IMG/VR virus record: IMGVR_UViG_3300029071_000017
Strand: one strand, 5' to 3'
DNA from: a virus
Taxonomy: Duplodnaviria > Heunggongvirae > Uroviricota > Caudoviricetes
DNA: 30,192 bases
Part shown: one piece after another, positions 1 through 28,823 of the stretch
Layout: each line of letters begins with the position of its first letter
Position numbering within the stretch: position 1 is the first letter of the stretch
Notes under the pieces: generated by a model
What the model was told of the DNA's origin: nothing
What the model saw: only the letters and a program-made list of their open reading frames with translations
Database searches by the model: none
Translations under genes and position numbers: made by a program

Positions 1-618
1 GATGATTTCGGTGTATGACGACCAGAGCGTTTTGTTCTGCAGCTGGTCTGTGGTGCTGTCCGGCGTCATCCTGCGCATCCGGATATTGAACGGGCGCGGC
101 GGCAGGTTACCCACCACCACCGATGCCAGATACTGTGAGGTGGTTTTGCCTTTAATGGTGATGTCTTTTTCCGTCACCCAGCCACCATTACGCTGTATCT
201 GAACCAGCAGGCGGACTTCCGACGGATTCCGGTCCCCCTTTGAGGTGGTTTCCACCAGTGCCTGCACACCGAAGGTAAAGCGCAGACGGTCGATGTTTGC
301 AGACGTGATGGTCCGGGTAATCGGCGTGTCGTACTTCACTTCCGTACCCAGCACCGTCTCGGAGCCGGAGGATTCAAATCCCTCCGGCGGTGTCTGCTCC
401 TGCTCACCTGCCCGGAAAACCACCGTGACACCGGAGATATTGGTATTCCCCTCACTGTCCAGCACTGGCGTACTGTTCAGCAGCACACTTTTTAATCCGT
501 CCACCGGACCTTCAATCGGCCCTTCACTGATGGCGTCTATCACGCTCAGCATCTGCGTGGACTTCAGGTTGTCCTTCGCTTCGCGCGGGGTATGCCCCTT
601 ACTGCTGCCTTTACCCAT
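1..618 (-). CDS. J: Tail tip / host-specificity protein J, N-terminal part; gene runs off the left edge of the window
   Basis: Minus-strand translation from ~618 reads MGKGSSKGHTPREAKDNLKSTQMLSVIDAISEGPIEGPVDGLKSVL, near-identical to the lambda gpJ N-terminus as I recall it; GAGG Shine-Dalgarno upstream; no stop seen before the window edge in the stretches I translated. Confidence 0.8.
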   Translation of the reverse strand, partial: MGKGSSKGHTPREAKDNLKSTQMLSVIDAISEGPIEGPVDGLKSVLLNSTPVLDSEGNTNISGVTVVFRAGEQEQTPPEGFESSGSETVLGTEVKYDTPITRTITSANIDRLRFTFGVQALVETTSKGDRNPSEVRLLVQIQRNGGWVTEKDITIKGKTTSQYLASVVVGNLPPRPFNIRMRRMTPDSTTDQLQNKTLWSSYTEII

Positions 619-678
619 TCCTCACGCTCCAGAAACGACAAAACCGCCCTGAGGCGGTTTCACATAAAACGTTTTTCA

Positions 679-1326
679 TCAACGACCAATCACCACAACC
701 TGACCACCGTCCCCCTCGTCTGCCGTGCTGATCTCCTGAGAAGCCACCCGCGACCCCACGCGCATTTCACCGTACAGAACAGGCAGAACATTGCCCTGGG
801 CAACCATGTTATCCAGTGATGAGAAATAGGTGTTCTGCTTACCGTTATCCGTGCTGGTCGCTGTGGGCGTCCGGGCTTTCGGTGCCAGCATCTGGGCCAC
901 ACCACCCAGGATCATACTGGCCCCTGCCGCATACATGCCCGATACAGCCGCGGCACCCAGCCAGCCCACAGGGTTCCACCATGCCACCGCAATCAGCGCC
1001 GCACCCAGCACTGCCTGAAAAACACCGCCACTTTTAGCTCCCGCCAGACGCGGCACAATGTGGATCACGGCACCATTTGCCAGCGACTCATTAAGACGGG
1101 CAGATAATTCATTTTCGCCTGCATCACGCCCGGCAATGCGCACCTGATACCAGCCCTCATTCAGTTTCTGACGAAACGCCGGGAGCTGTGTGGACAACGC
1201 CCGGATGGCTTCAGCCCCCGTTTTTACACGAAGGTCGATGCGGCGGCCAAATCGTTGTAAATCCCCGTAAAGGCAGATGCGTGCCATGCCCGGTGACGCC
1301 AGAGGGAGTGTGTGCGTCGCTGCCAT
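679..1326 (-). CDS. I: Tail assembly protein I
   Basis: 215-aa ORF MAATHTLPLASPGMARICLYGDLQRFGRRIDLRV... matches lambda gpI along its length; sits between K and J as in lambda. Confidence 0.9.
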   Translation of the reverse strand: MAATHTLPLASPGMARICLYGDLQRFGRRIDLRVKTGAEAIRALSTQLPAFRQKLNEGWYQVRIAGRDAGENELSARLNESLANGAVIHIVPRLAGAKSGGVFQAVLGAALIAVAWWNPVGWLGAAAVSGMYAAGASMILGGVAQMLAPKARTPTATSTDNGKQNTYFSSLDNMVAQGNVLPVLYGEMRVGSRVASQEISTADEGDGGQVVVIGR

Positions 1327-3009: not shown

Positions 3010-6000
3010 TACCGATATGCTCCACTTAACCGACCACCATCACGGGCCTGCTGTTGCATAAAGTCCGCTGCAGCTTTTTTCCCGAGGTCATAAACCACCT
3101 TCAGGGCAGCCGGACCTATCTGCCCGTTCGTGCCATCGTTATTGATCTCGATGTTGTACTGCGGGGCAAACATCGCCATACCTGAACCACCAATATCCGC
3201 CACAACCCCCAGCTTACCGTCAGCACCACGACGCAGAGGCAGAATGGCTTCAGGCCCAGCTTCCCCCATCACACCTGCACCTTTTGCAAAAGCAAAAAAC
3301 GTCGGACGGTTAACCACCGTGCCACTGTAGCGACTCAAATCAGCAGACTGATAAACACCACCATCAGCATTGGGCGTCACACTGGCAGTTGCTGCACTCC
3401 CCCAGCCAAACGCCGAACCAATCCCCTTAACTGCCTGCATCATGGACATCTGGGCCATGATTTTTGCTAGATCAGAAAGGAGCGAGGCGGTAAAAGATTT
3501 GAAGTTCAGTTTTCCGGTAGTACAGAACGTTGCCAGTGCATTACCTGCACTGTTAAATGCCGCTGTAAGCATCTGCTCAGCAGTGCCTGCCGCATTATCC
3601 GCATCTGCCGTGAAATTCTGAAACGCCCGCATGGCACCGTTTTTCCAGTTACCCTGAGCAATTTCAAGCTGTTGCCAGTAACGGCGATTCTCATTCAGTT
3701 GTCGGTTCAGGCTCTCCGTCAGCGCCTGCTCGGCCTTTCTGTAGTCATCCGTGTTATATGTCCCTTTCTGCTCACTATCCCGCCTCAACTGCTCCAGCTG
3801 TTGCTGGTATTTCTGGCGAAGACTCAGTTGTACCTGATATCGCTGCCGCTGCTGATCACCCATACCCACCGTGGCGATATCCAGGTCATGTTGCTGACGC
3901 TGAGCGCGCTCTTCTTCAGCCAGTTGACTGGTCAGTTGAATTGTTTTTTTCTTCAGCTCGTTGAGTGCCGTCTGTTTCTGAAGCTCCTGCTGTTTTACAT
4001 CCAGCAGCGTCAATGCCTGAATCAGTTCATCTTTACGGGCAAGCACACTCTTTTCATCTGCCGTCAGTTTTTTCCCGTCCAGGTCGCTGATGCGCTGCTG
4101 CAGAGCCAGAAGCTGTTTATGCGCTTCTGTCATCTTTTCAGTGGCAATGCCTGCTGACTGTCTGGCAGCAGCAATCTGCCCTTCCACCTGTGCCTGTTGC
4201 TGACTGTACTGCAGCAATAACCGGGTGGCCTCATCATTACGGGTTTCGCGTGTTTTTTTCTTACCGGATGCCAGGGCTTTCTCGTAACGTTCATTTTCAC
4301 GTTGTATCGCCGCATCCCTGACAGCCTGATCGGCGTACTGCATGGCATTAATACGCGCAATTTCACGCTGATGTCGTGCTGCTTCCGTTTCATTCATCCG
4401 GTTCAGTGCAGCATTTTCAGCATTACGGCGTTTCTGTTGCTCCTGATAATTCCGCTCTGCCTGCTCTTTTGCATCCTGCAAATCCTTCTGGCGTTTTTTC
4501 TCCTGAAGATCGTTAAGACGCTGCTGATCGTATTCAACCTGAGAAGATGATGCCGTCCAGGGGAGTCTTTTCGCCCGCGACACTTTCTCCTGTAAAGCGG
4601 CAATCTGTTCATCCAGCGAGTCTTCACGACCAATATTCATGGCCGCATCCCAGAACTGCTTCCACCAGTCAGACAAGGTTTGCAGCGTGCTACCCAGCGC
4701 ATTGAGGTTATTATCAATATCCGCAGTACGCCGACCGGTTTCCTCTGCCAGTGCAGACATGGCTATCCGTGCAGCATCACTGGACCGTCCCTGATCCCCA
4801 AGGACGCGTATCTGCTCAAGCTGAGTGGCAGTAAGAAAATGCAGCTCATTGTCCAGAGCCTTCGCGGCATTTACAGGATCATCCTTCAGCCGCTTAAACT
4901 GACTTATGGTATCGCTGACCGACTGGCCAACCGATCGCTCCATCTGTGCGGCAGCTCTCGCCACCATACCGATATCGTTTCCACGAAATGCACCACTCCC
5001 CACCACCTGAGCCAGCGCACCGGCTGCAGCATGTTGCGTGATACCATTCCCGGAAATAGCACGACTGAGCGTCCACAGTTGCCCGGCAGTGACTCCGGCA
5101 TAATGCCCCGTCAGCGACAACTGGCGGTTAAATTCTTCCCCCTCCTTCTGACCGTCATACCAGGCTTTACCCAGACCATAGACGGCCGCGGCAATACCGC
5201 CAATAACCCCGCCCAGCATCATGCCTTTCGGTGACATCAGTGTGTCTATCCATCCGGCACGGTTAGCCAGCGTTATCCCGGATCCCCTCAGCGCACCTAA
5301 ATTGCCGCGGGCCAGTTCACCTATCAGAACGCCTATCTCCTGGCGGGCCGCTGCACTTTTCAGACCCAGCGAATGCGTGGCTTTTCCTGCCTGCTCCATT
5401 TTGCGGATATACACTTCTGCAGCACTGCTTACCCCCAGTTGGGCAGCCTTAGCACGAAGCAACTCAGAAGAAGAAAGATTCTGGCGGGTTGCCTGCTCTT
5501 TAAGCTGACGGATAAACGCCACTTTCTGTCGGGTAGACTCTTCCTCAGCCTGTGTAAGAACACGGGTTTTCGCAGTAACCTCAGAAATCAGCGCCAGATA
5601 ATCCTGCTGACCAATCCCGCCACTGTTTCTGGCCTGTCGGATCTGCTGCTGAATACGCTGTAATTCCTGCAGCCCCGCACTGGCCTGTTTCACACTGTCA
5701 ATCTGACGATAAAACGCAGCAGCCGCTTTATCCTGAGCCTCCGCCAGAGCCATGGCCTGCGCCTGTTCCTCGCGCATTTTCTGGCTCAGCGCCTCCATGC
5801 GCTGGTGGGTTTTCTCCACCTCGCGGGCCATGCGTTCATGAGCCTGTGCGTTCTTCTCCACCGTCTGCGCATGGACGGATGCGGCTGTTGCAGCCGAAGA
5901 AGCCGCCTGCGTTGTCTGCCGGGCGGCCTGAGTCTGACGCTCCATAAAACGCTGCATACGGGCAGAAGACCGTTCTGCATCGCTGGCTGCACCATTCAGA

Positions 6001-6779: not shown

Positions 6780-6794
6780 CATGTTCTCCACCTG

Positions 6795-6820
6795 CAAAAA
6801 AGCCCCGGATAACCGGGGCA
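6795..6820 (-). terminator. Intrinsic terminator (or attenuator) between major tail gene V and G
   Basis: Minus strand: GCCCCGG-TTAT-CCGGGGC hairpin followed by a run of 6-7 T, just downstream of the V stop and upstream of the G RBS. Approximate coordinates. Confidence 0.6.
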
Positions 6821-6839
6821 AATGATGAGTATCGTCCTG

Positions 6840-9187: not shown

Positions 9188-9236
9188 AGCCCCGTTCAGG
9201 GGCTGATTTCAGGTACAAAAAAAGCCCTTACGGGCC
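9188..9236 (-). terminator. Intrinsic terminator downstream of the capsid gene
   Basis: Minus strand: GCCC-GTAA-GGGC hairpin followed by TTTTTTT about 25 nt after the capsid stop, then a second hairpin AGCCCC-TGAAC-GGGGCT. Approximate coordinates. Confidence 0.55.
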
Positions 9237-9259: not shown

Positions 9260-11218
9260 TTACGCCGTACATTTCACCAGACCGCGGTGATCAACTGGCG
9301 CGACACCGGCGTCAATACGCACTTTCGTTGTCACGCCATCCACACTGAAGCCCTCCATCTGATCAATATATGGCGTATCCACACCGTTGAGATAAGCCAC
9401 TTCAATCGTATCGGAGCCTTTGGACGCAGCCAGATAAAAGGTGGTCTGGCTGTTATCATCAAGACGAGGCTCTGCAATAACGGTCGCAAAATCTTTCACC
9501 GGGTTAATAATACCGGCGTTAATGTCAGCCCCCTTGACACTTGAGGAGCGAATGACCTGGTTAGCAACAGACTCCATCGCCGTCGGTACCAGTACGAACG
9601 CAGGACGAATATTCAGATGACGCTCCCCCTCTTTCTGAACGCGCATCAACTGGCGGGCTTTATCCAGCGATGCCACGTCCATTGCAGCGCTCTCCAGTAC
9701 GTTTGCATGTTTCGCTTTATCGAACAGACTTACATTATCTGTGGAGATTTTCGGGTTAGACGTCAGAATGGCATAAACCAGATCGGCAATAGTGGATTTC
9801 GCCGCACGGCCCAGTTTCATCGGGACATCGGTCAGCATATTCAGATCATCATTGATAATGGCCTGACGGGTGATACTGAACAGCGAGCCATAGGTCGCCA
9901 GTGCAATAGTGGCCTGTTTATCTCCGGTGGTGACGTATTTATATTCCGCCCCTTCACGCACCTGACGCAGAGCACTGAAGCCCCCCATACCCACACGATG
10001 GGCAATTTTAAAATCAGACAACTGACCTTTCCGCGTCCACTGTTCATAGGTTTCAGGAGCATCTTCCCAGCCCTGCAGAATGGCTTTGTTCGCAACATCC
10101 AGCAGAATATTACCGAAGTCAGACGTACTGTGTGTGAACGCCGCACCGACCATCTGCATCGGGTTATAACTGGAAACCCCAATACCCCGTTCAGTCAGTG
10201 ACATACGGGCATATTCACGCAGGGTCATCCCGTTGTAGACATTATCACGTTCGGTTTTTTCAAATCCGGCACGCGCCATCAGCGCCTGGCGGATCCCGTC
10301 CCCCACAAAATTACCGTTACCGGCATAAATATGAGCCGGGGTATTTTTATTGGATGGCGTGGACTCGCGCCCCATCTCGTTCAACAGCTTTTCGCGGGCC
10401 TGCTCCAGCGAACATTCAGGATCGGCAAGACACTGAGCCTGCAGCGTCTGATAACGCCCGCCAAACATGGCAAACAGATCATTAATACCGTTTACACGCG
10501 CTTTTTGCTCTGCCAGCACCTGCGCACGGATACTGTTTTCATCCACCACGGGTGCTGCTGCCTGCACTGGCGTCCGGGAGGCTGCAGGTTCATCATCCTG
10601 TACGCGTGGAGCACTGTTGCGTGGCGGAGTAATCATGTTTCGAATGGATTCCGGCATCTTTTTAAATTCCTCTGTACGTTTTGACTGAATACATGCCATT
10701 GCCTTAACGGCTGGCGTCACCTGATCAGCAAATCCATGTGCCAGACATTCGGCACCGGACATCCAGGTCTCATCCGCCAGCATGGCAGCAATTTCATCGG
10801 TGGTTTTCCCGGTTTTCTGTGCATAAGCGGGTAACAGAACCGCCTCAACCTTATCGAGCAGGTCGGCATAGGTGCGCATGTCCTCCGCATCACCGCCCGT
10901 AAAGCCAAATGGTTTATGAATCATCATGAAGGTGTTTTCCGGCATAATGACCGGGTTTCCCACCATCGCAATGACCGACGCCATTGACGCCGCCACACCG
11001 TCGACATAAACGGTAATGGACGCACCATGTGTTTTCAGCGCATTAAAAATGGCGATGCCTTCAAAGACATCGCCACCCGGTGAATTGATATGGAGATTAA
11101 TGTGGGTGATATCGCCCAGTGCATTCAGATCACTGATAAACTGCTTCGCTGTAACACCCCAGAAACCAATCTCGTCATAAATATAAATATCCGCGTCACT
11201 CTGGTGACCAGCCTGCAT
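9260..11218 (-). CDS. Prohead protease (ClpP/S49-like) fused to HK97-fold major capsid protein
   Basis: ORF 9260-11479; start set at MQAGHQSDADIYIYDEIGFWG, 13 nt after the portal stop; N-terminal ClpP-like region (...INSPGGDVFEGIAI...), central Ala/Gln-rich scaffold-like linker, C-terminal capsid-like region. Confidence 0.75.
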   Translation of the reverse strand: MQAGHQSDADIYIYDEIGFWGVTAKQFISDLNALGDITHINLHINSPGGDVFEGIAIFNALKTHGASITVYVDGVAASMASVIAMVGNPVIMPENTFMMIHKPFGFTGGDAEDMRTYADLLDKVEAVLLPAYAQKTGKTTDEIAAMLADETWMSGAECLAHGFADQVTPAVKAMACIQSKRTEEFKKMPESIRNMITPPRNSAPRVQDDEPAASRTPVQAAAPVVDENSIRAQVLAEQKARVNGINDLFAMFGGRYQTLQAQCLADPECSLEQAREKLLNEMGRESTPSNKNTPAHIYAGNGNFVGDGIRQALMARAGFEKTERDNVYNGMTLREYARMSLTERGIGVSSYNPMQMVGAAFTHSTSDFGNILLDVANKAILQGWEDAPETYEQWTRKGQLSDFKIAHRVGMGGFSALRQVREGAEYKYVTTGDKQATIALATYGSLFSITRQAIINDDLNMLTDVPMKLGRAAKSTIADLVYAILTSNPKISTDNVSLFDKAKHANVLESAAMDVASLDKARQLMRVQKEGERHLNIRPAFVLVPTAMESVANQVIRSSSVKGADINAGIINPVKDFATVIAEPRLDDNSQTTFYLAASKGSDTIEVAYLNGVDTPYIDQMEGFSVDGVTTKVRIDAGVAPVDHRGLVKCTA

Positions 11219-11231
11219 CCTGAACCAGGAA

Positions 11232-12740
11232 TTATTCTTCGGACTGGTCGTCGGTGTGCTGCGGCTCCTGTCGTTTCGTTGCGGCACTGCTGCCTCCTTT
11301 ATCACTGGCCGGATCGGTATCAAATACCAGATCCAGCTTGCGGTTTTCATCAATTTCGGCCTTGCGCCGACGTTTGACATCATCCGGATTACGACCACCT
11401 GCACGTACCCAGTCTGATTCTGTCGCCGCTCCACCACGAATCTGAATTTTCCAGGCCTCAGCCTCCTTAACAGGGTCAATCCACGGCATCACCGGTCCGG
11501 AATACACCGCGGTATACAGTGAAGAACGATCAAGATCGCGGGGTAGCCTGATAACACCGGATGCCACAGCCTGTTTCAGCCAGGCACGATACATCGGGCG
11601 GGTGACGGCACCAATAAACCAGTCCTGCAGGATCAGGTAGCCATCAGTGGATTCAACCAGCTCCTGACGCTGGGCGCTGTAAGTGCCGTTATAGTTGCGC
11701 GCTGTACTGGAAAAACTCAGACGACTGCCCGCCGCCACGGCACGCAACTGACCATTACGAAAAGTTTCAAGATTAGGATTGGGGCGATCCGACTTCACCA
11801 TTCCGATTTCTTCGCCGGGTTTCAGATCGTCGTAAATAATGCCTGGCTGAATGGTAAGCTCGCGTTCCTTATCCTTGCTGCCATTACCATCCGGTTCATA
11901 GCTCTGCCCGTCGCCTTTCCGGATGTACATCCCCAGAGCAGCGGCGATCCTTGCTGCAGTCAGCTCAGAATCTTCATACTCTTTCAGGGCACTGAGGCGG
12001 ATCAGCACACCGGACAACAAAGACGTCCCGCGCATCTGGTGCAGACGGCGAACAAATTTAAGATGCAGCATTCGCTCTGCATCCACTTCTTTGGTTTCCA
12101 TCTGCCGTCCGGATACAGGACGGCTTTTATACACCAGATATTTTTCGGGGCGCCCCCAGTCATCAACAAACACGCCCTGATTCAGCCTGTTGCTCTCATC
12201 ACTGGTCATGGGAATAAAGTCCGGCTCGAGCGCCTCCAGCCAGAAATGAACACCGGCAGAAGGCGTCAGGCTGTTTATGCGCCCGGAAACCATCTGGGCA
12301 AACACCTCACCATCGCGCAGCCAGGTACGCAGCATCAGACGTTCCAGCATCGGGCGGGTAAACTGCCCGGTGACTTCCGGACTGACAGACCATTCACTCC
12401 ATCGGGTGCGTATCTCCGCTGCCAGGTCACGGGCAATGGCCCCATTGCGTAATACCGGATGTGGCTCGACAATAATCCCGTTTTTCCCCACCACCCGTTC
12501 TTCCAGCTTGTCAAATACACCAATAACCAGATCGTGGTTGTTATCAAGGTAACGGGCCTGCTCACGTAACGACACGGCCCCGTACTGGCTTAACTGGTCG
12601 GCAGTTCGGTTTTCCCGCCGGGCTTTGTGTGTCCGCGTAGTTTTTACGGCCTCATAAGCCTGGATCACCGCCCGGGAACGCAGCCTTGCCGCTTTCCATC
12701 CTGGTGAAAAAACGCCAATCACATCATCAAGAATTGCCAT
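11232..12740 (-). CDS. Portal protein
   Basis: About 500 aa between W and the protease-capsid gene; start at MAILDDVIGVF gives an ATGA overlap with the W stop; acidic C-terminus typical of portals. Confidence 0.75.
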   Translation of the reverse strand: MAILDDVIGVFSPGWKAARLRSRAVIQAYEAVKTTRTHKARRENRTADQLSQYGAVSLREQARYLDNNHDLVIGVFDKLEERVVGKNGIIVEPHPVLRNGAIARDLAAEIRTRWSEWSVSPEVTGQFTRPMLERLMLRTWLRDGEVFAQMVSGRINSLTPSAGVHFWLEALEPDFIPMTSDESNRLNQGVFVDDWGRPEKYLVYKSRPVSGRQMETKEVDAERMLHLKFVRRLHQMRGTSLLSGVLIRLSALKEYEDSELTAARIAAALGMYIRKGDGQSYEPDGNGSKDKERELTIQPGIIYDDLKPGEEIGMVKSDRPNPNLETFRNGQLRAVAAGSRLSFSSTARNYNGTYSAQRQELVESTDGYLILQDWFIGAVTRPMYRAWLKQAVASGVIRLPRDLDRSSLYTAVYSGPVMPWIDPVKEAEAWKIQIRGGAATESDWVRAGGRNPDDVKRRRKAEIDENRKLDLVFDTDPASDKGGSSAATKRQEPQHTDDQSEE

Positions 12741-12952: not shown

Positions 12953-15051
12953 AACCATCCTCCGGAAGTCAGCCAGGGGTTAACATCGTCAGTTACTGTT
13001 TTCTTCCGTTTTTGTTTTTTAACAGGCGTGGATATCGGTTCCGGTGAGGGTGACGGTTCGGTACTGTCCGGGACACACTCCAGCCAGGTTTCCCGGCTCG
13101 CCCACTCCGGTGCATCCGGCCAGCGGATCTTTTCGTATCCATGCAGAATGACCAGAGCCTCGGCATACACCATCAGGTCAAAAGCTTCGTTGGCACCGCG
13201 ACCCGGCTTACTCCATTTCCCGTCACTGCTCCGCTCTTCATACGTCAGTTCGTCGTAAAACCAGCTCCCCAGCCAGTCAGGGAAATGCACATAGCCGGGA
13301 CCTGGTGAGTCACGCCATAACGCGTTATTCACCCGGTCTTTCAGTGCATCCGTCTGAAGAAGCCAGAGCGGCACATCACCTGCGGCCTGCGCCCGTCGGC
13401 CCGTTCGTCCGGTGTTATCAGGGAATGTACGGGTGATCAGTTTTGCGCGCCGGATGCTGTCGCCCTTAAACAGGTAAATACGTTTACCAAGGCCATCACG
13501 ACGGCAACGACGCCAGAATTTATAGGCATTATCAGTGACCCCGTCTTCACCGCCGGAGTCCACCGCCATTGCCATCAGTCGCATTTGTTGAGAAGGATCG
13601 GAGGCCAGCGGCCAGCTTTTATGAAAAACATCCGTCAGCAGGACATCCCAGTCTTCCGGATAGCTGGCCGGATCAATTCGCTGGCTCTCCCCGTCGCTGT
13701 CACCGCGCAATGACTGCGTGATGTTGTAACGATCAATAATCCAGCGTTCGCCACGGCTGCCATAGCCCGTTACCTGAACCACAAAACGGCGATGACGTCC
13801 CGCCTGCACATCCACTGTCGCCACAAGGAAATTAACGCCATCCGGCACACTGCGGGAAGGAACTGGCTCTGCCCGCTGCTCAAGCAGTTCACTTTTTCGT
13901 TGCTCCATGCTGGCGCGGGGAAGATAAGGTAATCCCCAGTCGGTATTGATAACCGTCTTGAGTGTTTCTTCACTTCCGGTTGTCTCGTATTCCTGTTCTG
14001 CAGTAAGCAGTTTGTAAACGAGTTGCGAGAGTGTCTGGTAAGCAGCTGCCGGACCCTCCATCCAGAATGACGCAATACGTGAGCGTCGGGGATCACCATA
14101 ACGACTGCCATCCGCATTGATGGATTCACCATCCCGCAACCAGACCCCACGTCCGTTCAGCTCACGTTTTTGTTCAGGCATAATCCGTCCTGAACAGGAA
14201 GGACACTGAATATAAGCCGCCTCACTTGCCAGCACGGGATCGGCAATATCACGGAAACCAGCAACCACATCGCCGCAGGGCTGAAAATACTCACCACAGT
14301 GTGGACAGGGCCAGTACCAGCGACGGCGATCGCCACGGTTATAGAGCGACAGTATCCCCGTGGTTGGTGGAGCCTCATGCGGTGAAGTCCGTCGCCATTT
14401 CACATCCTTCACATCCCTGCCGGGGGAACTCTCCACCAGCGTCATACCACTGGACATAAATGTTGTGGTACGTTTTGAGGCAAGAGAGAAAGCATCCCCC
14501 TCGCCATCAATATCTTCCGGAAAACGGTCATAATCCGTCAGCGCGACGCATTTATAATCTGATGAGGACATGATATTGACTGACGGCCAGCCGATTTTCA
14601 GGTAGTTACCAGCAAGGAATGTTCTGTCATAAACGTTGTTGTCATTTTTGTTCGGACTCAGGCGACTGACCACTTCCGGGCTGACGCGAAACGTTCTGGC
14701 GAGTCGTTTTTTGGAGTGTTCGCGGGCTTTTTCCTCCGTCATCTGAATAATCAGCATATCAGCAGGATCGCAAATCACGTTGTAAATCACCCAGCCGTCA
14801 ATCAGGCCGATAGTCTTGCCGGTTCGTGCCGGGCCAACAAATATCACTGCGTCGTATTCACGCGAGGCCAGGCAGTTCATCGGCTCAATAACATACGGTG
14901 CCACCAGCGGATCCCACGGGACTGAGTTCCCTGCCCCCATGGGCACCCGCATATACTGAGCAACGGCATCAGCAACCCGCATTCGTCTCGGTGCGCGAAG
15001 GATATAACCTGAATCGGTTCGTGCTGCCTTTGCGGTTTCCTGATTCAGCAT
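12949..15051 (-). CDS. Terminase large subunit (lambda gpA family)
   Basis: 700-aa ORF with Walker A-like GPARTGKT and a Cys/His cluster (CPHCGEYF...CPSC) as in gpA-type terminases; directly follows the small subunit with an ATGA overlap. Confidence 0.85.
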   Translation of the reverse strand: MLNQETAKAARTDSGYILRAPRRMRVADAVAQYMRVPMGAGNSVPWDPLVAPYVIEPMNCLASREYDAVIFVGPARTGKTIGLIDGWVIYNVICDPADMLIIQMTEEKAREHSKKRLARTFRVSPEVVSRLSPNKNDNNVYDRTFLAGNYLKIGWPSVNIMSSSDYKCVALTDYDRFPEDIDGEGDAFSLASKRTTTFMSSGMTLVESSPGRDVKDVKWRRTSPHEAPPTTGILSLYNRGDRRRWYWPCPHCGEYFQPCGDVVAGFRDIADPVLASEAAYIQCPSCSGRIMPEQKRELNGRGVWLRDGESINADGSRYGDPRRSRIASFWMEGPAAAYQTLSQLVYKLLTAEQEYETTGSEETLKTVINTDWGLPYLPRASMEQRKSELLEQRAEPVPSRSVPDGVNFLVATVDVQAGRHRRFVVQVTGYGSRGERWIIDRYNITQSLRGDSDGESQRIDPASYPEDWDVLLTDVFHKSWPLASDPSQQMRLMAMAVDSGGEDGVTDNAYKFWRRCRRDGLGKRIYLFKGDSIRRAKLITRTFPDNTGRTGRRAQAAGDVPLWLLQTDALKDRVNNALWRDSPGPGYVHFPDWLGSWFYDELTYEERSSDGKWSKPGRGANEAFDLMVYAEALVILHGYEKIRWPDAPEWASRETWLECVPDSTEPSPSPEPISTPVKKQKRKKTVTDDVNPWLTSGGWL

Positions 15052-15542
15052 TACTCCTCCTGCTGTAATTCCTCCTCATCATCCGCACCTGCTTCAGTCA
15101 CCCGCAGGGCTATCTGATCGCGCAGATCATCAATAATGGACTGAACACGGCTCACAGCGGCAGGCTGCAGGCCGCAGTCACGTTCAAGAATATCCGGTAA
15201 TGTCTCCAGCACCTGCACGACCGCTTTTGCCCAGATGGCAAACTCCCGTCTGACATCACTGGCCGGAATGAGTTGTGCCGTTTCCTGTTCGAACTTAAGA
15301 CGCTCACGTTCAGACTGATACCAGGCTTTGCGTTCATGTGGATCCATTTCGCCCTCAGCAACCGGCGGTGGTAACCCCATAAATTCAGTCAGAATATCGG
15401 TCAACCGGTATAGCTTGAGTTTGTCATGTCCACCAGCGGGACGAATGTTTTTCAGTCTTGCCACGACAGTCTGGCGGTGCAGACCAGATAAAGCCGCCAG
15501 TTGATTAATATTCAGCACCAGGTTTTTCAACTCATGATCCAT
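15051..15542 (-). CDS. Terminase small subunit (Nu1-like, N-terminal HTH)
   Basis: 163-aa ORF, N-terminal LNINQLAALSGLHRQTVVARL HTH, acidic C-terminus; first gene downstream of cos. Confidence 0.75.
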   Translation of the reverse strand: MDHELKNLVLNINQLAALSGLHRQTVVARLKNIRPAGGHDKLKLYRLTDILTEFMGLPPPVAEGEMDPHERKAWYQSERERLKFEQETAQLIPASDVRREFAIWAKAVVQVLETLPDILERDCGLQPAAVSRVQSIIDDLRDQIALRVTEAGADDEEELQQEE

Positions 15543-15711
15543 ATTTCCTCCGGAGAGCTTTAAACATGCATCGTGCGAACAACTTTAAGAAAACGCGTTC
15601 GATGTCGAACAAAAAACACTCAATTCGACATACAAAAAACAAACAACCATTAATAATCAATAAGATGTAAAGATGATGGTGGCCGATAAAAATGCAAAAA
15701 CTAGCCTTTTT

Positions 15712-15732
15712 CCGCGACGCTCCCGCCCCGTG
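15712..15732 (-). other. cosN-like cohesive-end site
   Basis: Minus strand reads ACGGGGCGGGAGCGTCGCGG, compared with lambda cos ACGGGGCGGCGACCTCGCGG as I recall it, about 180 nt upstream of the terminase small-subunit start as in lambda. Approximate coordinates. Confidence 0.6.
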
Positions 15733-16181
15733 GCAAGACCCCCCACCGGGAGGACCCGTCAGCCTGACAGCTCTGACGAACGTCTGATACCGCGCCTTGC
15801 ATGAATGGCATCGGGATAATCCAGAAAGGTATAGCATCGTACCCACAAGAATCTGTGTGAGTGTCCTGTTTCTTCCACCCCCGCACAGGACTGGCGAGCA
15901 TGAGGGACAAACCCGCGAATCATTAGCGCGGTAAAAACCCGGTGTGCATCGTTTTTGATTATTCCCGCACACTCGCGCAGAAGGAGTTCCCCGTCGGGCT
16001 ACGGTCTCTGTTAATGGGGGAATACGGCGACGATACGGCGCACAGAAATAGATCAGAAATCTATTGCCCACAATCCACATAAAGGCAATACATTGCATGA
16101 GCACAGGTAATCGCCTATGCTCATGTATTGGCATTCTTTTGCCGCCGGCGAATCTTCAGCGGATTATCCTTGGCCGGTTTT

Positions 16182-16625
16182 TTATCTGAGGCATTGCTCG
16201 CTAATATATAGCTGTGCCCCCTCCAGTTGTTTTTGCATCAATATCAGCCGCTCTCTGAGGGTGAAATAATCCCGTTCAGCGGTGTCTGCCAGTCGGGGGG
16301 AGGCTGCATTATCCACGCCGGAGGCGGTGGTGGCTTCACGCACTGACTGACAGACTGCTTTGATGTGCAACCGACGACGACCAGCGGCAACATCATCACG
16401 CAGAGCATCATTTTCAGCTTTCGCATTGGCTAATTCTCTCGAGTACTTTGCATCGAGCGCAGCAACATCACGTTGACGCTTCTGCATATCAGCGATGATG
16501 GATGCGGCTTTATCGCGCTGCTCTTTGTAGGTCATGGCGTTATCACGGTAATGATTAACAGCCCATGACAGGCAGACGATGATGCAGATAACCAGAGCGG
16601 AGATAATCGCGGTGACTCTGCTCAT
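16182..16625 (-). CDS. Rz: i-spanin Rz
   Basis: 147-aa [33 protein letters not shown]..., near-identical to lambda Rz. Confidence 0.9.
16244..16426 (-). CDS. Rz1: o-spanin Rz1 (lipoprotein) embedded in Rz in another frame
   Basis: 60-aa [27 protein letters not shown]...[15 protein letters not shown] with lipobox VVGC; near-identical to lambda Rz1. Confidence 0.85.
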
Positions 16626-17098
16626 ACCTCAATCTCTCTGACCGTTCCGCCCGCTTCTTTGAATTTTGCAATCAGGCTGTCAGCCTTATGCTCGAACTGA
16701 CCATAACCAGCGCCCGGCAGTGAAGCCCAGATATTGCTGCAACGGTCGATTGCCTGACGAATATCGCCGCGGTCAATCATCGGTAAAGCGCCACGCTCTT
16801 TAATCTGCTGTAATGCCACTGAGTCCTGGCTTCTGGGAGAGAAGTCTTTCAGCCCAAGCTGCTTGCGGTAAGCATCCCACCAACGTGAAAGAAGTTGATA
16901 ACGGCCTGCAGCTGTTGATTTGAGTTTCGGGTTTAGCGTGACAAGTTTGCGAGGGTGATCGGAGTAATCAGTGAAGAGTTCGCCACCGACAATAACGTCA
17001 TAACCGTGGTTACGTGTCGGTTGTCGCCCGTTATCCGTTCCTTCTGACCAGGCCACCATATCAAGGAAAGCTTTACGCTGAGGATTTAGTACCTGCAT
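16622..17098 (-). CDS. R: Endolysin R (lytic transglycosylase)
   Basis: 158-aa [27 protein letters not shown]..., lambda R-like; ATGA overlap with Rz. Confidence 0.9.
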
Positions 17099-17101
17099 AA
17101 A

Positions 17102-17437
17102 TTACTCCTTCGAGCTACCAAATTTGTTACCGATTACTCGCATTGCAGCCCCACGAATAGCATCGACACCGATCAGCCCAACGCCGCCACCAATGGCAAC
17201 AGAAAGAGATTTAGGCCATCCGACATACTCAAGAGCGGATGCAAAAGTCAGCGTCAGAGCACCACAGAGCAAAATCTCGAGCGTTTTTCGCTTCCAGCCA
17301 CCACCACCGCCAAAATAGGCAATGCGCAAGCCAGCCATAACGATCGACATAATCACTGCGCCCAGCGGTGTGTCTCCACGCCACCAGCTCTGAAACAACT
17401 CCAGCCAGTCCGGCCAGGTATTTGGGTTATGAGGCAT
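17102..17437 (-). CDS. Holin (not lambda S type)
   Basis: 111-aa ORF immediately upstream of R with about three hydrophobic segments and a charged C-terminus; first gene after the late terminator. Confidence 0.6.
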   Translation of the reverse strand: MPHNPNTWPDWLELFQSWWRGDTPLGAVIMSIVMAGLRIAYFGGGGGWKRKTLEILLCGALTLTFASALEYVGWPKSLSVAIGGGVGLIGVDAIRGAAMRVIGNKFGSSKE

Positions 17438-17576
17438 TTGTAGTTATCTCTCACCTCGCTGATACAGCAGGTGCAAATTGAGGAAACATCATGTTCCGCA
17501 AATCAGAAGCGGAAACGTCAAAGAAGCCGAGTCAAAGGATAACTGCGGGATAAACCAAGCCCAACGAACAACCAGG

Positions 17577-17611
17577 CCCAGAAACGACAAAACCCGCTCA
17601 TCGGCGGGTTT
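17577..17611 (-). terminator. Candidate late terminator tR' (hairpin plus U-rich tract) upstream of the holin
   Basis: Minus strand: AAACCCGC-CGATGA-GCGGGTTT hairpin followed by TGTCGTTTCTGG. Approximate coordinates. Confidence 0.5.
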
Positions 17612-17703
17612 AAGCTGTGTGGCGAAGTAACCACTCTTAACACATTACATGATAAAATGCGGACCGCGTTAGTAATATTTTTCTCATATATTGGGTTCAC
17701 TAC

Positions 17704-18450
17704 ATGCGACATAATTTTTCTAAAGACACTATAAAAAAATTAGCAGAGCGGGCAGCATTCATTTGTTCAAACCCTTCATGCCCTAGATTGACCATTGGCC
17801 CATCAATTGATGGCAATAAATCAATCAAGACAGGAGTTGCTGCTCACATATGTGCAGCATCTCCTGATGGCCCACGCTATGACATGTCACAATCAGAAAC
17901 AGAAAGGAAGTCAATTAACAATGGCATATGGCTGTGTGCTACTTGTTCTGTATTAATAGATAAGAATCAGGGGCTAGACTATCCGGCACCTGTATTAAGA
18001 AAATGGAAAAAAGATCATGAAAGCCTTATAAGCTCCTGTCTTGAAGGTTCGATTAATATTACCTTCGATGCTTTGAAATATATTCAACAGCATGATGAAA
18101 GAAATCTGGCAAAAAAGATTATAAATGAATTGGATGATAAAGGGGCTTTGTTCGTAGAATATCATCTTGAAAACCCCTGTTTTGTTGCCGAATCACTCAA
18201 AGAGTTAAGAACCTGTTTGACCTCTTTGCTTTCTCAAATCCCAGATGAATCACCTCTATTTATCGTTTGCAAGTCAATTCGAGAAGCATGCCGTTATTAT
18301 ATGAACAACACTTCTAAAGACGCAGGGATTAAAGAGTTAGAATTTTCGTTGGGAGCTGTCAGAAAAATCGTAGGTATCAACGTTAAAAGAATATCAGAAA
18401 CCTACGGGGTTAAACCTAGCCCACAATTATCTACCATAATGCCAGATTAA
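17704..18450 (+). CDS. Moron-encoded protein with HNH-like Cys/His motifs; function unknown
   Basis: 248-aa ORF on the strand opposite to the late genes, AT-rich relative to flanks; N-terminal C-x4-C ... AHI ... NGIWLCATC pattern; own downstream terminator. Confidence 0.6.
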   Translation: MRHNFSKDTIKKLAERAAFICSNPSCPRLTIGPSIDGNKSIKTGVAAHICAASPDGPRYDMSQSETERKSINNGIWLCATCSVLIDKNQGLDYPAPVLRKWKKDHESLISSCLEGSINITFDALKYIQQHDERNLAKKIINELDDKGALFVEYHLENPCFVAESLKELRTCLTSLLSQIPDESPLFIVCKSIREACRYYMNNTSKDAGIKELEFSLGAVRKIVGINVKRISETYGVKPSPQLSTIMPD

Positions 18451-18458
18451 ATCTGTTA

Positions 18459-18500
18459 CGCAGCAACAAAGTTAAACTCTATGTTGCTGCCTTAATTTTA
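18459..18500 (+). terminator. Intrinsic terminator of the moron gene
   Basis: GCAGCAACA-(13 nt loop)-TGTTGCTGC followed by CTTAATTTTATT, right after the moron stop and just downstream of the Q stop. Approximate coordinates. Confidence 0.6.
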
Positions 18501-18863
18501 TTACTCCATTTCTAAACGAATATCCAGCATCGAGAGACAACCATCTATAAACCCTTCAGCCAACTGTATCTCTATACGTATCAATTTCTCATCTTTTTTG
18601 TATGCTTTTGCTATCTTCCTTTTCGAGATGCCATACAGGTAATGAGCCACAATCAGAGAGTGCTCATATGGTTTTCTCTTCTTAAGAAGAGCAAGACAAC
18701 CTTCAATAATTAATGCATCACTATCTGAACAAGCCTGACGTGTTTTGCTTGTATAGGGAAGAAGCCCTTTAAACCCAGCAGCTATAGGAGAATAGTCTAC
18801 TCCAGAACTATCACTCGCCGCCCATGCTCCCCAACGATCCAGAACCATCTGAATATCACGCAT
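18501..18863 (-). CDS. Late antiterminator Q (phage 82 / QuuD-like type)
   Basis: ORF 18501-18878; start set at MRDIQMVLDRWGAWAA... with GGAG upstream; C-terminal ...EGFIDGCLSMLDIRLEM resembles 82-type Q proteins as I recall them. Confidence 0.7.
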   Translation of the reverse strand: MRDIQMVLDRWGAWAASDSSGVDYSPIAAGFKGLLPYTSKTRQACSDSDALIIEGCLALLKKRKPYEHSLIVAHYLYGISKRKIAKAYKKDEKLIRIEIQLAEGFIDGCLSMLDIRLEME

Positions 18864-18880
18864 CAACTTTCTCCACAAAA

Positions 18881-19042
18881 TCAGGCCAGCACGCCAGTTG
18901 CCAGTGCACGATCGATAAAACGAAATATCAGCTCCAGCTGGGAGCCATATTTCTCTTCAAATGCCACGGTATCCGCATGCAGCTCGTCGTGATGCTTTCT
19001 GCACAAAGGCAACACAAAGAGGTCATGCGCTTTTGTACCCAT
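18881..19042 (-). CDS. Small hypothetical protein (about 53 aa) upstream of Q
   Basis: Not in the ORF track (under 60 aa); my own translation gives MGTKAHDLFVLPLCRKHHDELHADTVAFEEKYG... with an AGGGTGGA RBS. Coordinates hand-derived. Confidence 0.3.
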   Translation of the reverse strand: MGTKAHDLFVLPLCRKHHDELHADTVAFEEKYGSQLELIFRFIDRALATGVLA

Positions 19043-27343: not shown

Positions 27344-27693
27344 TGGAGCCATACAGCCTCACACTCGATGAGGCCTGTCATTTTCTCAAGATATCCAGAC
27401 CGACTGCCATTAACTGGATACGCACAGGGCGTCTTCAGGCAACACGCAAAGATCCCACTAAGAATAAATCTCCTTACCTCACAACACGACAAGCCTGCAT
27501 TGCGGCTCTTCAGTCTCCGCTGCATACTGTCCAGGTGAGCGCGGGTGATGGCATAACAGAGGAAAGAAAATGTCACTCTTCCGCAGAGGTGAAATATGGT
27601 ACGCCAGTTTCACATTGCCGAACGGTAAAAGATTTAAACAGTCTCTTGGAACAAAGGACAAAAGGCAGGCGACAGAACTCCATGACAAGCTAA
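27343..27693 (+). CDS. xis: Excisionase (P22-type)
   Basis: ORF 27259-27693; start set at [38 protein letters not shown], which resembles P22 Xis as I recall it; immediately upstream of and overlapping int. Confidence 0.75.
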
Positions 27694-28733
27694 AGGCTGA
27701 AGCATGGCGGGTCAGCAAACTTGGTGAAATACCTGATATAACGTTCGAGGAAGCGTGTGTCAGGTGGCTTGAAGAGAAAGCACATAAAAAATCACTGGAC
27801 GATGACAAAAGCCGGATCGGATTCTGGCTTCAACATTTCGCAGGAATGCAACTAAGAGACATTACTGAATCAAAAATTTATTCAGCAATGCAGAAAATGA
27901 CGAACCGGCGTCATGAGGAAAACTGGAAACTCAGGGCAGAAGCATGCAGAAAAAAAGGGAAACCTGTTCCAGAATACACGCCAAAACCAGCGTCCGTTGC
28001 AACGAAGGCTACGCATCTTTCATTTATAAAGGCCCTACTAAGAGCCGCAGAGCGTGAATGGAAAATGCTGGATAAGGCACCAATTATTAAAGTGCCTCAA
28101 CCAAAGAATAAACGGATCCGCTGGCTGGAGCCCCATGAAGCACAAAGGCTGATTGATGAATGTCCGGAGCCATTAAAGTCTGTTGTTGAATTTGCACTGG
28201 CAACAGGCTTAAGACGCTCGAACATCATCAACCTTGAATGGCAACAAATAGATATGCAGCGCCGGGTGGCATGGATAAACCCGGAAGAGAGTAAATCAAA
28301 CCGCGCAATTGGCGTTGCGCTGAATGATACTGCATGTCGCGTATTGAAAAAACAAATCGGGAATCATCACCGTTGGGTATTTGTGTACAAGGAAAGCTGT
28401 ACCAAACCAGACGGAACGAAAGCGCCAACAGTAAGGAAGATGCGGTATGACGCAAACACAGCCTGGAAAGCGGCGCTGAGACGGGCTGGTATTGATGATT
28501 TCAGATTTCACGACTTGAGACACACCTGGGCAAGTTGGCTGGTTCAAGCCGGAGTCCCGTTGTCAGTGTTACAGGAAATGGGAGGCTGGGAGTCTATCGA
28601 AATGGTTCGTCGATATGCTCACCTTGCACCTAATCACCTTACCGAACACGCACGGCAAATAGACTCGATCCTGAACCCATCGGTCCCAAATTTGTCCCAG
28701 TCAAAAAATAAGGAAGGTACTAATGATGTGTAA
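27570..28733 (+). CDS. int: Tyrosine integrase (P22 Int-like)
   Basis: 387-aa [51 protein letters not shown]...; C-terminal R...HDLRHTWAS...MVRRYAHL catalytic signature; ends 14 nt before the tRNA 3' end. Confidence 0.9.
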
Positions 28734-28747
28734 CTTATTGATTTAAA

Positions 28748-28823
28748 TGGTGCCGATAATAGGAGTCGAACCTACGACCTTCGCATTACGAATGCGCTGC
28801 TCTACCAACTGAGCTATATCGGC
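28748..28823 (-). tRNA. thrW: tRNA-Thr (anticodon CGU), thrW-type; prophage attachment site at its 3' end
   Basis: Reverse complement reads GCCGATATAGCTCAGTTGGTAGAGCAGCGCATTCGTAATGCGAAGGTCGTAGGTTCGACTCCTATTATCGGCACCA: 7-bp acceptor stem, CGT anticodon in a 7-nt loop, T-arm GGTTCGACTCC, 3' CCA. Coordinates within 1 bp. Confidence 0.9.

What the first reader, a model, noticed from the sequence alone, without database searches (positions are those of the whole stretch)
620..660. Terminator-like hairpin module inserted between tail genes I and J
In lambda, I and J abut, but here ~60 nt separate them and contain AAACCGCC-TCAG-GGCGGTTT followed by TGTCGTTTCTGG on the late strand, a copy of the module at the candidate tR'. 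A terminator within the tail operon just before the long tip-fibre gene could set J dosage or mark a recombination joint in the mosaic.
Basis: seen in the sequence. Interest (0 to 1): 0.4.

Follow-up and report, generated by a model that had tools for sequence, protein, structure and literature searches.

The report
Conserved terminator-like hairpin before lambda J
The hairpin between tail genes I and J is real, but it is not an insertion: phage lambda has the same 60-base spacer and hairpin, as do prophages in about half of complete E. coli genomes, so this is an ordinary, conserved, terminator-type element.

Summary
The sequence observation holds. On the late (minus) strand, gene I stops at 681..679 and J starts at 618. 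The 60-nt spacer carries AAACCGCC-TCAG-GGCGGTTT (660..641), followed by TGTCGTTTCTGG.

The premise is wrong. Lambda I and J do not abut (I ends 15444, J starts 15505). Lambda has the same 60-nt spacer and the same stem, differing only in the loop and two tail bases. Identity to lambda is continuous across the spacer; the mosaic joint lies inside gene I.

Among 68 distinct lambda-type sequences, 0 of 18 stem positions vary. In contrast, 19 of 42 other spacer positions vary, including all 4 loop positions (p = 2e-4).

Other lineages carry different hairpins with T-runs at the same position: HK97/N15-like, Stx 1717-like and T1-like. One shows a compensatory C-G to U-A change. The phiKO2 record annotates its copy as a putative terminator.

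The likeness to the hairpin upstream of the holin gene (17611..17590) is real: a shared 17-mer tail.

Best reading: an ancestral intrinsic-terminator-type hairpin, read through by Q-modified polymerase and stopping unmodified polymerase. It may also stabilise upstream mRNA. Termination itself is inferred, not shown. Low novelty.

The parts
641..660 (-). Stem-loop. 5' arm 660..653 AAACCGCC, loop 652..649 TCAG, 3' arm 648..641 GGCGGTTT. A G661-U640 pair can extend it to 9 bp.
   Evidence: Read directly. Folds at -14.3 kcal/mol. The stem is invariant in 68 distinct lambda-type sequences while the loop varies.
629..640 (-). T-rich tail TGTCGTTTCTGG. With the last bases of the 3' arm, the RNA reads UUUUGUCGUUUCU. 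The tail's last two bases (630..629) are the first two of J's Shine-Dalgarno GGAG.
   Evidence: the TTTT immediately after GGCGG is invariant, while the later tail varies (GTCATTT, ATCGTTT, GTCGTAT, TTTATGG or TTTCTGG).
619..678 (-). The whole 60-nt I-J intergenic spacer, orthologous to lambda 15445..15504.
627..630 (-). Shine-Dalgarno GGAG of J, 8 nt before the ATG.
   Evidence: The sequence itself, plus the ribosome-binding-site annotation at the same position in Lambda imm21, OM418625. Invariant in the haplotypes.
679..1326 (-). Gene I (tail tip assembly protein, 215 aa).
   Evidence: Homologues carry PF06805. There is a divergent internal patch at about 1150..815 relative to lambda.
1..618 (-). 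5' part of gene J (central tail fibre / host specificity protein). It runs off the start of the window.
17578..17611 (-). Related hairpin plus tail: AAACCCGCC-GATGA-GCGGGTTT then TGTCGTTTCTGG. It lies about 140 nt upstream of the holin gene (17437..17102). It is part of a ~54-nt module (17642..17589) found in the slot after Q in other phages.
6802..6819 (-). Companion late-strand intergenic hairpin after the tail tube gene V: GCCCCGG-TTAT-CCGGGGC followed by T6. Context only.
   Evidence: Lambda cannot hold it, because its V-G gap is only 15 nt.
9216..9236 (-). Companion late-strand intergenic hairpin after the protease-capsid gene: GGCCC-GTAA-GGGC followed by T7. Context only.

Best explanation
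The element is the ordinary, ancestral I-J intergenic hairpin of lambda-type tail operons. It is an intrinsic (Rho-independent) terminator-type stem-loop with a U-rich tail on the late transcript, kept by selection.

Proposed mechanism (inferred):
- RNA polymerase that does not carry the late antiterminator Q stops here. Such polymerase could come from leaky or spurious transcription of the tail genes in a lysogen, or could have lost the Q modification.
- In that case J and the genes downstream of it are not transcribed.
- Q-modified polymerase coming from the late promoter reads through, which is how the essential J gene is expressed. There is no room or match for a promoter between the hairpin and J.
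- A secondary, compatible role is that the hairpin protects the upstream head and tail message from 3'-to-5' exonucleases after cleavage downstream.

Shown: the position, anatomy and orientation of the hairpin; its identity with lambda's element; conservation of the stem with a free loop; and recurrence of different hairpins at the same position in other lineages.

Inferred: termination itself and its Q-dependence.
For: 1. The same 60-nt spacer and stem occur in lambda NC_001416 at 15445..15504.
2. The element is very common. 109 phage records match. So do 2771 of 5426 complete E. coli genomes, at 4141 places; every listed row lies under tail assembly protein and J annotations.
3. Across 86 loci (68 distinct sequences), 0 of 18 stem positions vary. 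By contrast 19 of 42 other spacer positions vary, including 4 of 4 loop positions (Fisher p = 2.4e-4). Coding flanks vary at 24% of sites.
4. Citrobacter werkmanii (I protein 65% identical) has a 71-nt spacer with different flanks but the same GAACCGCC-TCCG-GGCGGTTTTGTCGTTT.
5. Other lineages carry other hairpins with T-runs in the same place:
   - HK97/N15-like: GCCACC-TTCG-GGTGGC followed by T6-8. The phiKO2 record annotates it as a 'putative terminator' at 15298..15320.
   - Stx 1717-like: ACAGGCACCC-TCCG-GGGTGCCTGT followed by CGTTTTT. It shows one compensatory C-G to U-A change and two wobble-compatible changes, with 97.5% of cells paired.
   - A 13-bp hairpin in other Stx-like loci.
   - T1-like SH6 and Klebsiella Roth42, and a Pseudomonas phage.
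6. Hairpin energies range from -10.9 to -22.7 kcal/mol.
7. The element is directional. A T-run follows the stem only on the late strand.
8. No sigma-70-like promoter was found in 500..800, so J depends on read-through.
9. The same window has two more terminator-like hairpins in late-strand intergenic spacers.
10. That Q-modified polymerase reads through terminators is established knowledge of lambdoid late regulation, summarised in PMC7547250.
Against: - No 3'-end or termination data for this site were found in the searchable literature.
- The U-tract is interrupted (UUUUGUCGUUU), so efficiency could be modest.
- The simple scanner did not call the site.
- Perfect 8-bp hairpins are not over-represented in the window as a whole.
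- Within the lambda type the stem never varies, so that lineage gives no covariation, only conservation. DNA-level constraints could also produce conservation.
- Some I/J-bearing phages have no spacer at all: Salmonella 29485 (9 nt), MagusPhagus (14 nt) and Gluttony (overlapping genes). The element is therefore not required for a lambda-type tail tip.
Confidence: 0.6

Rival explanations
1. The hairpin is mainly an mRNA stability or processing element. It forms in the long late transcript and blocks 3'-to-5' exonucleases, which sets the relative half-lives of the upstream tail message and the J message. Little or no transcription termination occurs.
For: - The stable stem is conserved.
- The same operon carries similar hairpins directly after the two most abundant structural genes, capsid and tail tube. 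That is the classical placement for intercistronic stabilisers.
- J must be transcribed by read-through in any case.
Against: - An exonuclease block needs no U-tract, yet the TTTT after the stem is invariant in the lambda type.
- A T6-8 run is kept in the HK97/N15 type.
- Gene I is not a high-abundance product that would need protecting.
- This rival is compatible with, rather than exclusive of, termination.
Confidence: 0.2
2. The hairpin is a DNA-level module boundary: a short conserved linker at which lambdoid phages recombine to swap the host-range gene J.
For: - In 80 HK97/N15-like loci, at least five unrelated upstream sequences all join the same hairpin, T-run and J leader. Similarity starts at the hairpin.
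- In locus L161 the 5' arm itself is replaced.
- At the second site, similarity between phiP27 and this window ends at the 3' arm of the hairpin.
- The Citrobacter locus keeps the hairpin between diverged flanks.
Against: - In this window there is no joint at the spacer. Identity to lambda is continuous across it, and the divergent patch lies inside gene I.
- A linker would not explain conservation of both arms with a free loop, nor the directional T-run.
- Junctions at terminators are expected anyway, because non-coding DNA tolerates crossovers.
Confidence: 0.1
3. The spacer encodes a small protein, or a translational relay. A 22-codon ORF starts at an ATG (679..677) that overlaps the I stop codon and ends at a TAA (613..611) that overlaps J codons 2-3. 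It could couple I translation to J translation.
For: - The ORF is open in lambda and in 54 of 68 distinct lambda-type sequences, with the TGATG overlap.
- The spacer length of 60 nt is a multiple of three in 64 of 68 sequences.
Against: - The peptide is hypervariable, with replacements at about half of its positions.
- 7 of 68 sequences have a lost start, a frameshift or a premature stop. Another 7 end 12 nt later.
- A 20-codon frame is open by chance about 38% of the time (own arithmetic).
- The ORF is absent from the Citrobacter, HK97/N15, 1717 and T1-like spacers, which still keep a hairpin.
Confidence: 0.05
4. A terminator module was inserted between I and J in this prophage, relative to lambda.
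For: None beyond the resemblance to the hairpin at 17.6 kb.
Against: - Lambda has the identical spacer length and stem.
- The alignment to lambda has no gaps from window 934 to 35, a stretch that spans the spacer.
Confidence: 0.01

Closest known systems
The I-J intergenic region of bacteriophage lambda (NC_001416 15445..15504)
   Same: Same position, same 60-nt length and same 9-bp stem GAAACCGCC/GGCGGTTTT. Also the same TTTT, the same GGAG ribosome-binding site and the same distance to the J ATG. The aligned region of about 130 nt around it is 96% identical.
   Different: The loop is TCAG here and TGCG in lambda. The tail is GTCGTTTCTGG here and GTCATTTATGG in lambda. The lambda record carries no feature there.
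The 'putative terminator' annotated between genes 20 (I-like) and 21 (J-like) of Klebsiella phage phiKO2 (NC_005857 15298..15320), with the same element in HK97/N15-like coliphages
   Same: Same position between the I and J homologues and the same orientation. Same anatomy: a 6-8-bp GC-rich stem, a tetraloop, a T-run, and then TTTATGG..GCG..ATG before J. The core CCACC/GGTGG differs from lambda's CCGCC/GGCGG by one change on each arm that keeps the pair.
   Different: The outer stem is different, the T-run is uninterrupted (T6-8), and the J protein is only about 32-33% identical. Whether the two hairpins are homologous or convergent cannot be decided from about 45 nt.
Intrinsic (Rho-independent) terminators of lambdoid late regions, such as tR' downstream of the late promoter, read through by Q-modified polymerase
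   Same: The anatomy is the same. In this window the hairpin upstream of the holin gene shares its stem type and a 17-nt tail with the I-J hairpin.
   Different: tR' sites have mapped 3' ends, for example in Stx phages (PMC7547250). No such data exist for the I-J site. The I-J site lies about 17 kb into the operon, not at its start.
Terminator-flanked transcription modules of T1-like phages
   Same: SH6 and Roth42 have a terminator hairpin in the I-J spacer. The T1 late region has been described as modules flanked by Rho-independent terminators (PMC11447400).
   Different: In those phages the hairpin is followed by a -10-like TATAAT or TACAAT, so J may have its own promoter. The lambda-type spacer has no room for one.

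Membership tests
Intrinsic (Rho-independent) terminator | GC-rich stem-loop in the RNA. | tested here: met
   An 8-9-bp stem with 5 G-C pairs and a 4-nt loop, folding at -14.3 kcal/mol.
Intrinsic (Rho-independent) terminator | U-rich tract immediately 3' of the stem, on the transcribed strand only. | tested here: met
   The RNA reads UUUUGUCGUUUCU on the late strand. The opposite strand reads CACAUAAAACG after the stem. The tract is interrupted, so the strength of the terminator is uncertain.
Intrinsic (Rho-independent) terminator | Lies outside coding sequence, downstream of a stop codon and in the same orientation as the operon. | tested here: met
   It lies 18 nt after the I stop codon and 9 nt before J's Shine-Dalgarno sequence. 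The small ORF across the spacer shows no coding constraint.
Intrinsic (Rho-independent) terminator | Generates RNA 3' ends and releases polymerase, in vivo or in vitro. | not testable with these tools
   No data were found in the papers searched.
Structured element under selection | Base-pairing is preserved across relatives: conserved arms, a free loop and compensatory changes. | tested here: met
   In the lambda type, 0 of 18 stem sites vary against 19 of 42 other spacer sites. In the 1717 type there is one C-G to U-A compensatory pair, 97.5% of cells are paired, and 22 of 500 shuffles score as high. Covariation is modest.
Orthologue of the lambda I-J spacer | Same flanking genes, same length, and alignable without gaps. 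| tested here: met
Moron, or an inserted module relative to lambda | Extra DNA absent from lambda at this junction, usually with its own promoter, gene and terminator. | tested here: not met
   There is no extra DNA relative to lambda, no promoter and no conserved ORF.
Any curated RNA family (Rfam 15) | A match at the family's gathering score. | tested here: not met
   A tRNA is the only match in the window. Matches in 500..800 reach at most 16 bits, with E-values of 0.87 or higher.

The most novel reading that the evidence does not exclude
The I-J hairpin is a selected 'checkpoint'. It makes the host-range gene J, and whatever lies downstream of it, strictly dependent on Q-modified polymerase. 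This insulates the distal end of the prophage from stray transcription of the tail genes. At the same time it serves as the preferred crossover point at which lambdoid phages exchange J modules. That double role would explain why unrelated hairpins recur at exactly this junction in lambda-like, HK97/N15-like, Stx-like and T1-like phages.
Probability: 0.15. Interest if true: 0.45.

Novelty: already known. Interest (0 to 1): 0.15.

Why it matters
It matters little as a discovery. The element is part of lambda's own sequence, it is present in prophages of roughly half of complete E. coli genomes, and its counterpart in phiKO2 is already annotated as a putative terminator.

What the check does add:
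- It corrects a false premise, that I and J abut in lambda.
- It shows that the stem is under clear purifying selection.
- It shows that a hairpin with a T-run in front of J recurs, with different sequences, in several siphophage lineages.

If someone measured it, the site would be a convenient natural test of how far from the late promoter Q-modified polymerase remains terminator-resistant. It would also test whether internal terminators insulate the distal genes of a prophage.

Tried and rejected
- **Terminator scanner.** It did not list the site. This is probably an artefact of G-T stem extension, not evidence against the hairpin.
- **Whole-window hairpin count against shuffles.** The count is not above chance, so significance was argued from position and conservation instead.
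- **Rfam**, at gathering and at permissive thresholds. No family matched either hairpin.
- **Protein search with I**. The 120 rows listed were all at least 65% identical, so it was of little use for distant loci.
- **The one genome-contig scan**. It returned mostly lambda DNA sitting in unrelated assemblies, which looks like spike-in contamination. Only Citrobacter werkmanii and a few decayed prophages were informative.
- **Literature.** The phiKO2 genome paper, the Casjens-Hendrix lambda review and the lambda ribosome-profiling paper were not held under the ids I tried. Full-text searches found no mapping of a 3' end at I-J. The EHEC Term-seq paper has no held supplements.
- **Small-ORF reading of the spacer.** Rejected on hypervariability and frameshifts.
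- **'Inserted module' and 'mosaic joint at the spacer'.** Rejected on the lambda alignment.
- **Link between the 17.6-kb module and the prophage anti-sRNAs of PMC4104026.** Considered, but no Rfam match was found and the link was not tested further.
- **Homology versus convergence** of the lambda-type and HK97-type hairpins, and of the two hairpins in this window. The shared sequence is too short to decide.

Full report
**What is there.** The window is a lambdoid prophage whose late genes lie on the minus strand.
- Gene I (215 aa, ending ...VVVIGR) occupies 1326..679, with its stop TGA at 681..679.
- J starts at ATG 618..616 (MGKGSSKGHTPREAKDNLK...) and runs off the start of the window.
- The spacer 678..619 is exactly 60 nt.
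- Read on the late strand, the spacer is tgaaaaacgttttatgtg AAACCGCC tcag GGCGGTTT tgtcgtttctGGAGcgtgagga ATG.
- The stem is a perfect 8 bp (660..653 with 648..641), or 9 bp with G661-U640, and the loop has 4 nt.
- The RNA after the G-C core reads UUUUGUCGUUUCU. J's Shine-Dalgarno GGAG (630..627) follows directly.
- The hairpin alone folds at -14.3 kcal/mol.

**Is it more than chance?** The hairpin by itself is not.
- Perfect hairpins of at least 8 bp with loops of 3-8 nt occur at 4 distinct sites in the window. Dinucleotide shuffles give 2.8 +/- 2.2.
- The consensus terminator scanner did not list the site. My reading is that its G-T-tolerant stem extension runs to 11 pairs and eats the T-run.
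- The case therefore rests on position and comparison with relatives.

**The premise about lambda is wrong.**
- In NC_001416, gene I is 14773..15444 and J is 15505..18903. That is a 60-nt gap, not abutting genes.
- Aligned, lambda reads ...GTGAAACCGCC TGCG GGCGGTTTT GTCATTTATGGAGCGTGAGGAATG. It has the same stem, the same length and the same ribosome-binding site. It differs in two loop bases and two tail bases.
- A 2.7-kb alignment of the window to lambda has no gap from window 934 to 35, a stretch that spans the spacer.
- Identity is 54/60 in the bin that holds the spacer and 55-59/60 in the bins on either side.
- The only strongly divergent stretch lies inside gene I, at window ~1150..815, where identity falls to 26-49/60.

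The hairpin is therefore neither an insertion nor a mosaic joint in this prophage.

**How common it is.**
- The 341-nt region matches 109 phage records at 90-100% identity, including lambda, 434, DE3, HK629 and mEp460.
- The 101 nt around the spacer match 4141 places in 2771 of 5426 complete E. coli genomes. Every listed row lies under 'tail assembly protein | J' annotations.

**Selection on the stem.**
- I compared 86 lambda-type loci from IMG/VR and GTDB genomes, which gave 68 distinct sequences.
- None of the 18 stem positions varies.
- All 4 loop positions vary. The loops seen are TCAG, TCCG, TGCG, TGCT, CCCG and one 5-nt loop.
- 15 of the 38 remaining spacer positions vary.
- Stem against the rest of the spacer gives 0/18 against 19/42, Fisher p = 2.4e-4.
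- The neighbouring coding sequence varies at 24% of sites.
- The sequences are related, so this p-value overstates independence. Even so, the pattern of two fixed arms around a free loop is what selection for pairing predicts.
- In Citrobacter werkmanii, where the I protein is 65% identical, the spacer is 71 nt with unrelated flanks. It still holds GAACCGCC-TCCG-GGCGGTTTTGTCGTTT.

**The same position in other lineages.** Different hairpins with T-runs sit between the I and J homologues of other phages.
- HK97/N15-like phages (J N-terminus about 32-33% identical) have GCCACC-TTCG-GGTGGC followed by T6-8. In Klebsiella phage phiKO2 the record annotates this as 'terminator, putative' at 15298..15320.
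- Stx 1717-like prophages (J about 77% identical) have ACAGGCACCC-TCCG-GGGTGCCTGT followed by CGTTTTT, about 54 nt before J.
  - A frequent variant is ACAGGCATCC...GGATGCCTGT, which is a compensatory C-G to U-A change.
  - Two further changes are wobble-compatible, and 97.5% of cells are paired.
  - The covariation score is reached by 22 of 500 shuffles, so the support is modest.
- Another Stx-like group has a 13-bp hairpin, AAACCCCGGTATC-TGCT-GATACCGGGGTTT.
- T1-like SH6 has AACCCGC-CTTGC-GCGGGTT followed by T8. Klebsiella Roth42 has an 11-bp hairpin followed by TTTTTGTCGT. Each is followed by a -10-like hexamer.
- A Pseudomonas phage has a 9-bp hairpin with a weak T-run.
- The feature is not universal. 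Salmonella 29485 (9-nt gap), MagusPhagus (14 nt), Gluttony (overlapping genes) and a Vibrio phage have no hairpin.
- The lambda core CCGCC/GGCGG and the HK97 core CCACC/GGTGG differ by one pair-preserving change on each arm, and both are followed by TTTATGG..GCG..ATG. With only about 45 nt shared, I cannot separate homology from convergence.

**The second copy.**
- 17611..17590 (minus strand) reads AAACCCGCC-GATGA-GCGGGTTT followed by TGTCGTTTCTGG. It lies about 140 nt upstream of the holin gene at 17437..17102 (PF05106).
- It shares a 17-nt tail, GGTTTTGTCGTTTCTGG, with the I-J site. The 13-mer core of that tail occurs nowhere else in the window; 0.05 matches are expected.
- So the claim that the two sites are copies of one module holds as a resemblance beyond chance.
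- The 17.6-kb hairpin belongs to a ~54-nt module (17642..17589) found at 84-96% identity in phiP27, SfII, SfIV, cdtI and several Stx2a phages. In the two loci inspected it sits in the variable slot after the Q gene, before the lysis genes.
- In phiP27, similarity stops at the 3' arm of the hairpin.
- The window's Q is of the phage-82 type (PF06530, 18878..18501). It is separated from the module by an antisense 248-aa ORF with no Pfam match.
- Whether the module is tR' proper or the terminator at a moron boundary was not resolved.

**Rivals examined.**
- Small ORF across the spacer.
  - A 22-codon ORF spans the spacer. Its ATG (679..677) overlaps the I stop codon, and its TAA (613..611) overlaps J codons 2-3. 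It is also open in lambda.
  - The peptide is hypervariable. 7 of 68 sequences have lost the start, shifted frame or gained a stop, and another 7 end later.
  - The ORF is absent from every other lineage that keeps a hairpin.
  - The refutation condition of 'conserved coding sequence' is therefore not met.
- Curated RNA families. No Rfam family matches either hairpin.
- Recombination linker.
  - This has some support elsewhere. In the HK97/N15 set, at least five unrelated upstream sequences join the same hairpin and J leader, and in one locus the 5' arm itself is replaced.
  - It has no support in this window.
- mRNA stabiliser.
  - This role is compatible with the data. It is suggested by two further late-strand intergenic hairpins in the window: one after the protease-capsid gene (9236..9216) and one after the tail tube gene (6819..6802).
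  - The conserved U-tract, however, points to termination.

**Mechanism.** No promoter-like site lies between the hairpin and J, so the essential J gene must be transcribed by read-through. In lambdoid phages the late transcript is made by Q-modified polymerase, which ignores intrinsic terminators; this is established knowledge, summarised in PMC7547250. The most economical reading is that the hairpin terminates polymerase lacking Q and is transparent to the late transcription complex, with a possible second role as a 3' stabiliser. Termination and its Q-dependence are inferences. I found no transcript-end data for this site.

**Verdict.** The feature is real, conserved and probably functional, but it is ordinary and already present in lambda. 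Its counterpart in phiKO2 is already annotated as a putative terminator. Interest is low.

Noticed in passing
window 6782..6839 (- strand), hairpin 6819..6802: The V-G spacer holds a strong terminator-like hairpin, GCCCCGG-TTAT-CCGGGGC followed by T6, just before G's ribosome-binding site. Lambda's V-G gap is only 15 nt (V ends 9695, G starts 9711). This junction, not I-J, carries extra DNA relative to lambda.
   Followed up: partly
window 9216..9236 (- strand): A terminator-like hairpin, GGCCC-GTAA-GGGC followed by T7, lies directly after the 739-aa ClpP-protease/major-capsid fusion gene (11479..9260) and before the cement-protein gene.
   Followed up: partly
window 611..679 (- strand): A 22-codon ORF spans the I-J spacer. 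Its ATG overlaps the I stop codon and its TAA overlaps J codons 2-3, and it is also open in lambda. The peptide is hypervariable, and the ORF is broken by a lost start, frameshift or early stop in 7 of 68 relatives (7 more end later), so it is probably not a gene.
   Followed up: yes
window ~815..1150 (- strand, inside gene I): This patch is only about 43-82% identical to lambda, between flanks of 90-98%. It is the real mosaic joint of this region and it lies inside gene I.
   Followed up: partly
window 17589..17642 (- strand): A ~54-nt module that ends in the second hairpin is shared with phiP27, SfII, SfIV, cdtI and Stx2a phages, in the variable slot after Q in the loci inspected. In phiP27, similarity ends at the 3' arm of the hairpin. 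Short prophage anti-sRNAs with conserved 3' parts are described at this slot (PMC4104026). There was no Rfam match, and the link is untested.
   Followed up: partly
window 17704..18450 (+ strand): A 248-aa ORF with no Pfam match lies antisense to the late strand, between the 82-type Q gene (18878..18501) and the holin gene. It may be a moron.
   Followed up: no
loci L093-L107, L110, L112-L121 and L123 (genome-contig scan): Lambda gene I turns up on short, low-coverage contigs in assemblies of unrelated organisms, including Streptomyces, Bradyrhizobium, Shewanella, Paenibacillus and Enterococcus. This looks like lambda spike-in or control-DNA contamination of public genomes.
   Followed up: no
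L296 (Shigella phage SH6) 290..368; L300 (Klebsiella phage Roth42) 286..374: In T1-like phages the I-J spacer has a terminator hairpin followed by a -10-like TATAAT or TACAAT. This suggests that J starts a new transcription unit there. Roth42's tail, TTTTTGTCGT, contains the TTTTGTCGT that begins the lambda-type tail.
   Followed up: no
L129 (Stx2 phage 1717) 241..501: The 259-nt I-J spacer holds two hairpins. The first (TCCCGCAG...CTGCGGGA) is followed by a T-run only on the opposite strand. It is as if a reverse-oriented unit had once sat between I and J.
   Followed up: no
window 28751..28823 (- strand): A tRNA gene (Rfam RF00005, 71.8 bits) lies next to a 387-aa ORF at 27570..28733 that was not examined. 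It may be the prophage attachment site.
   Followed up: no
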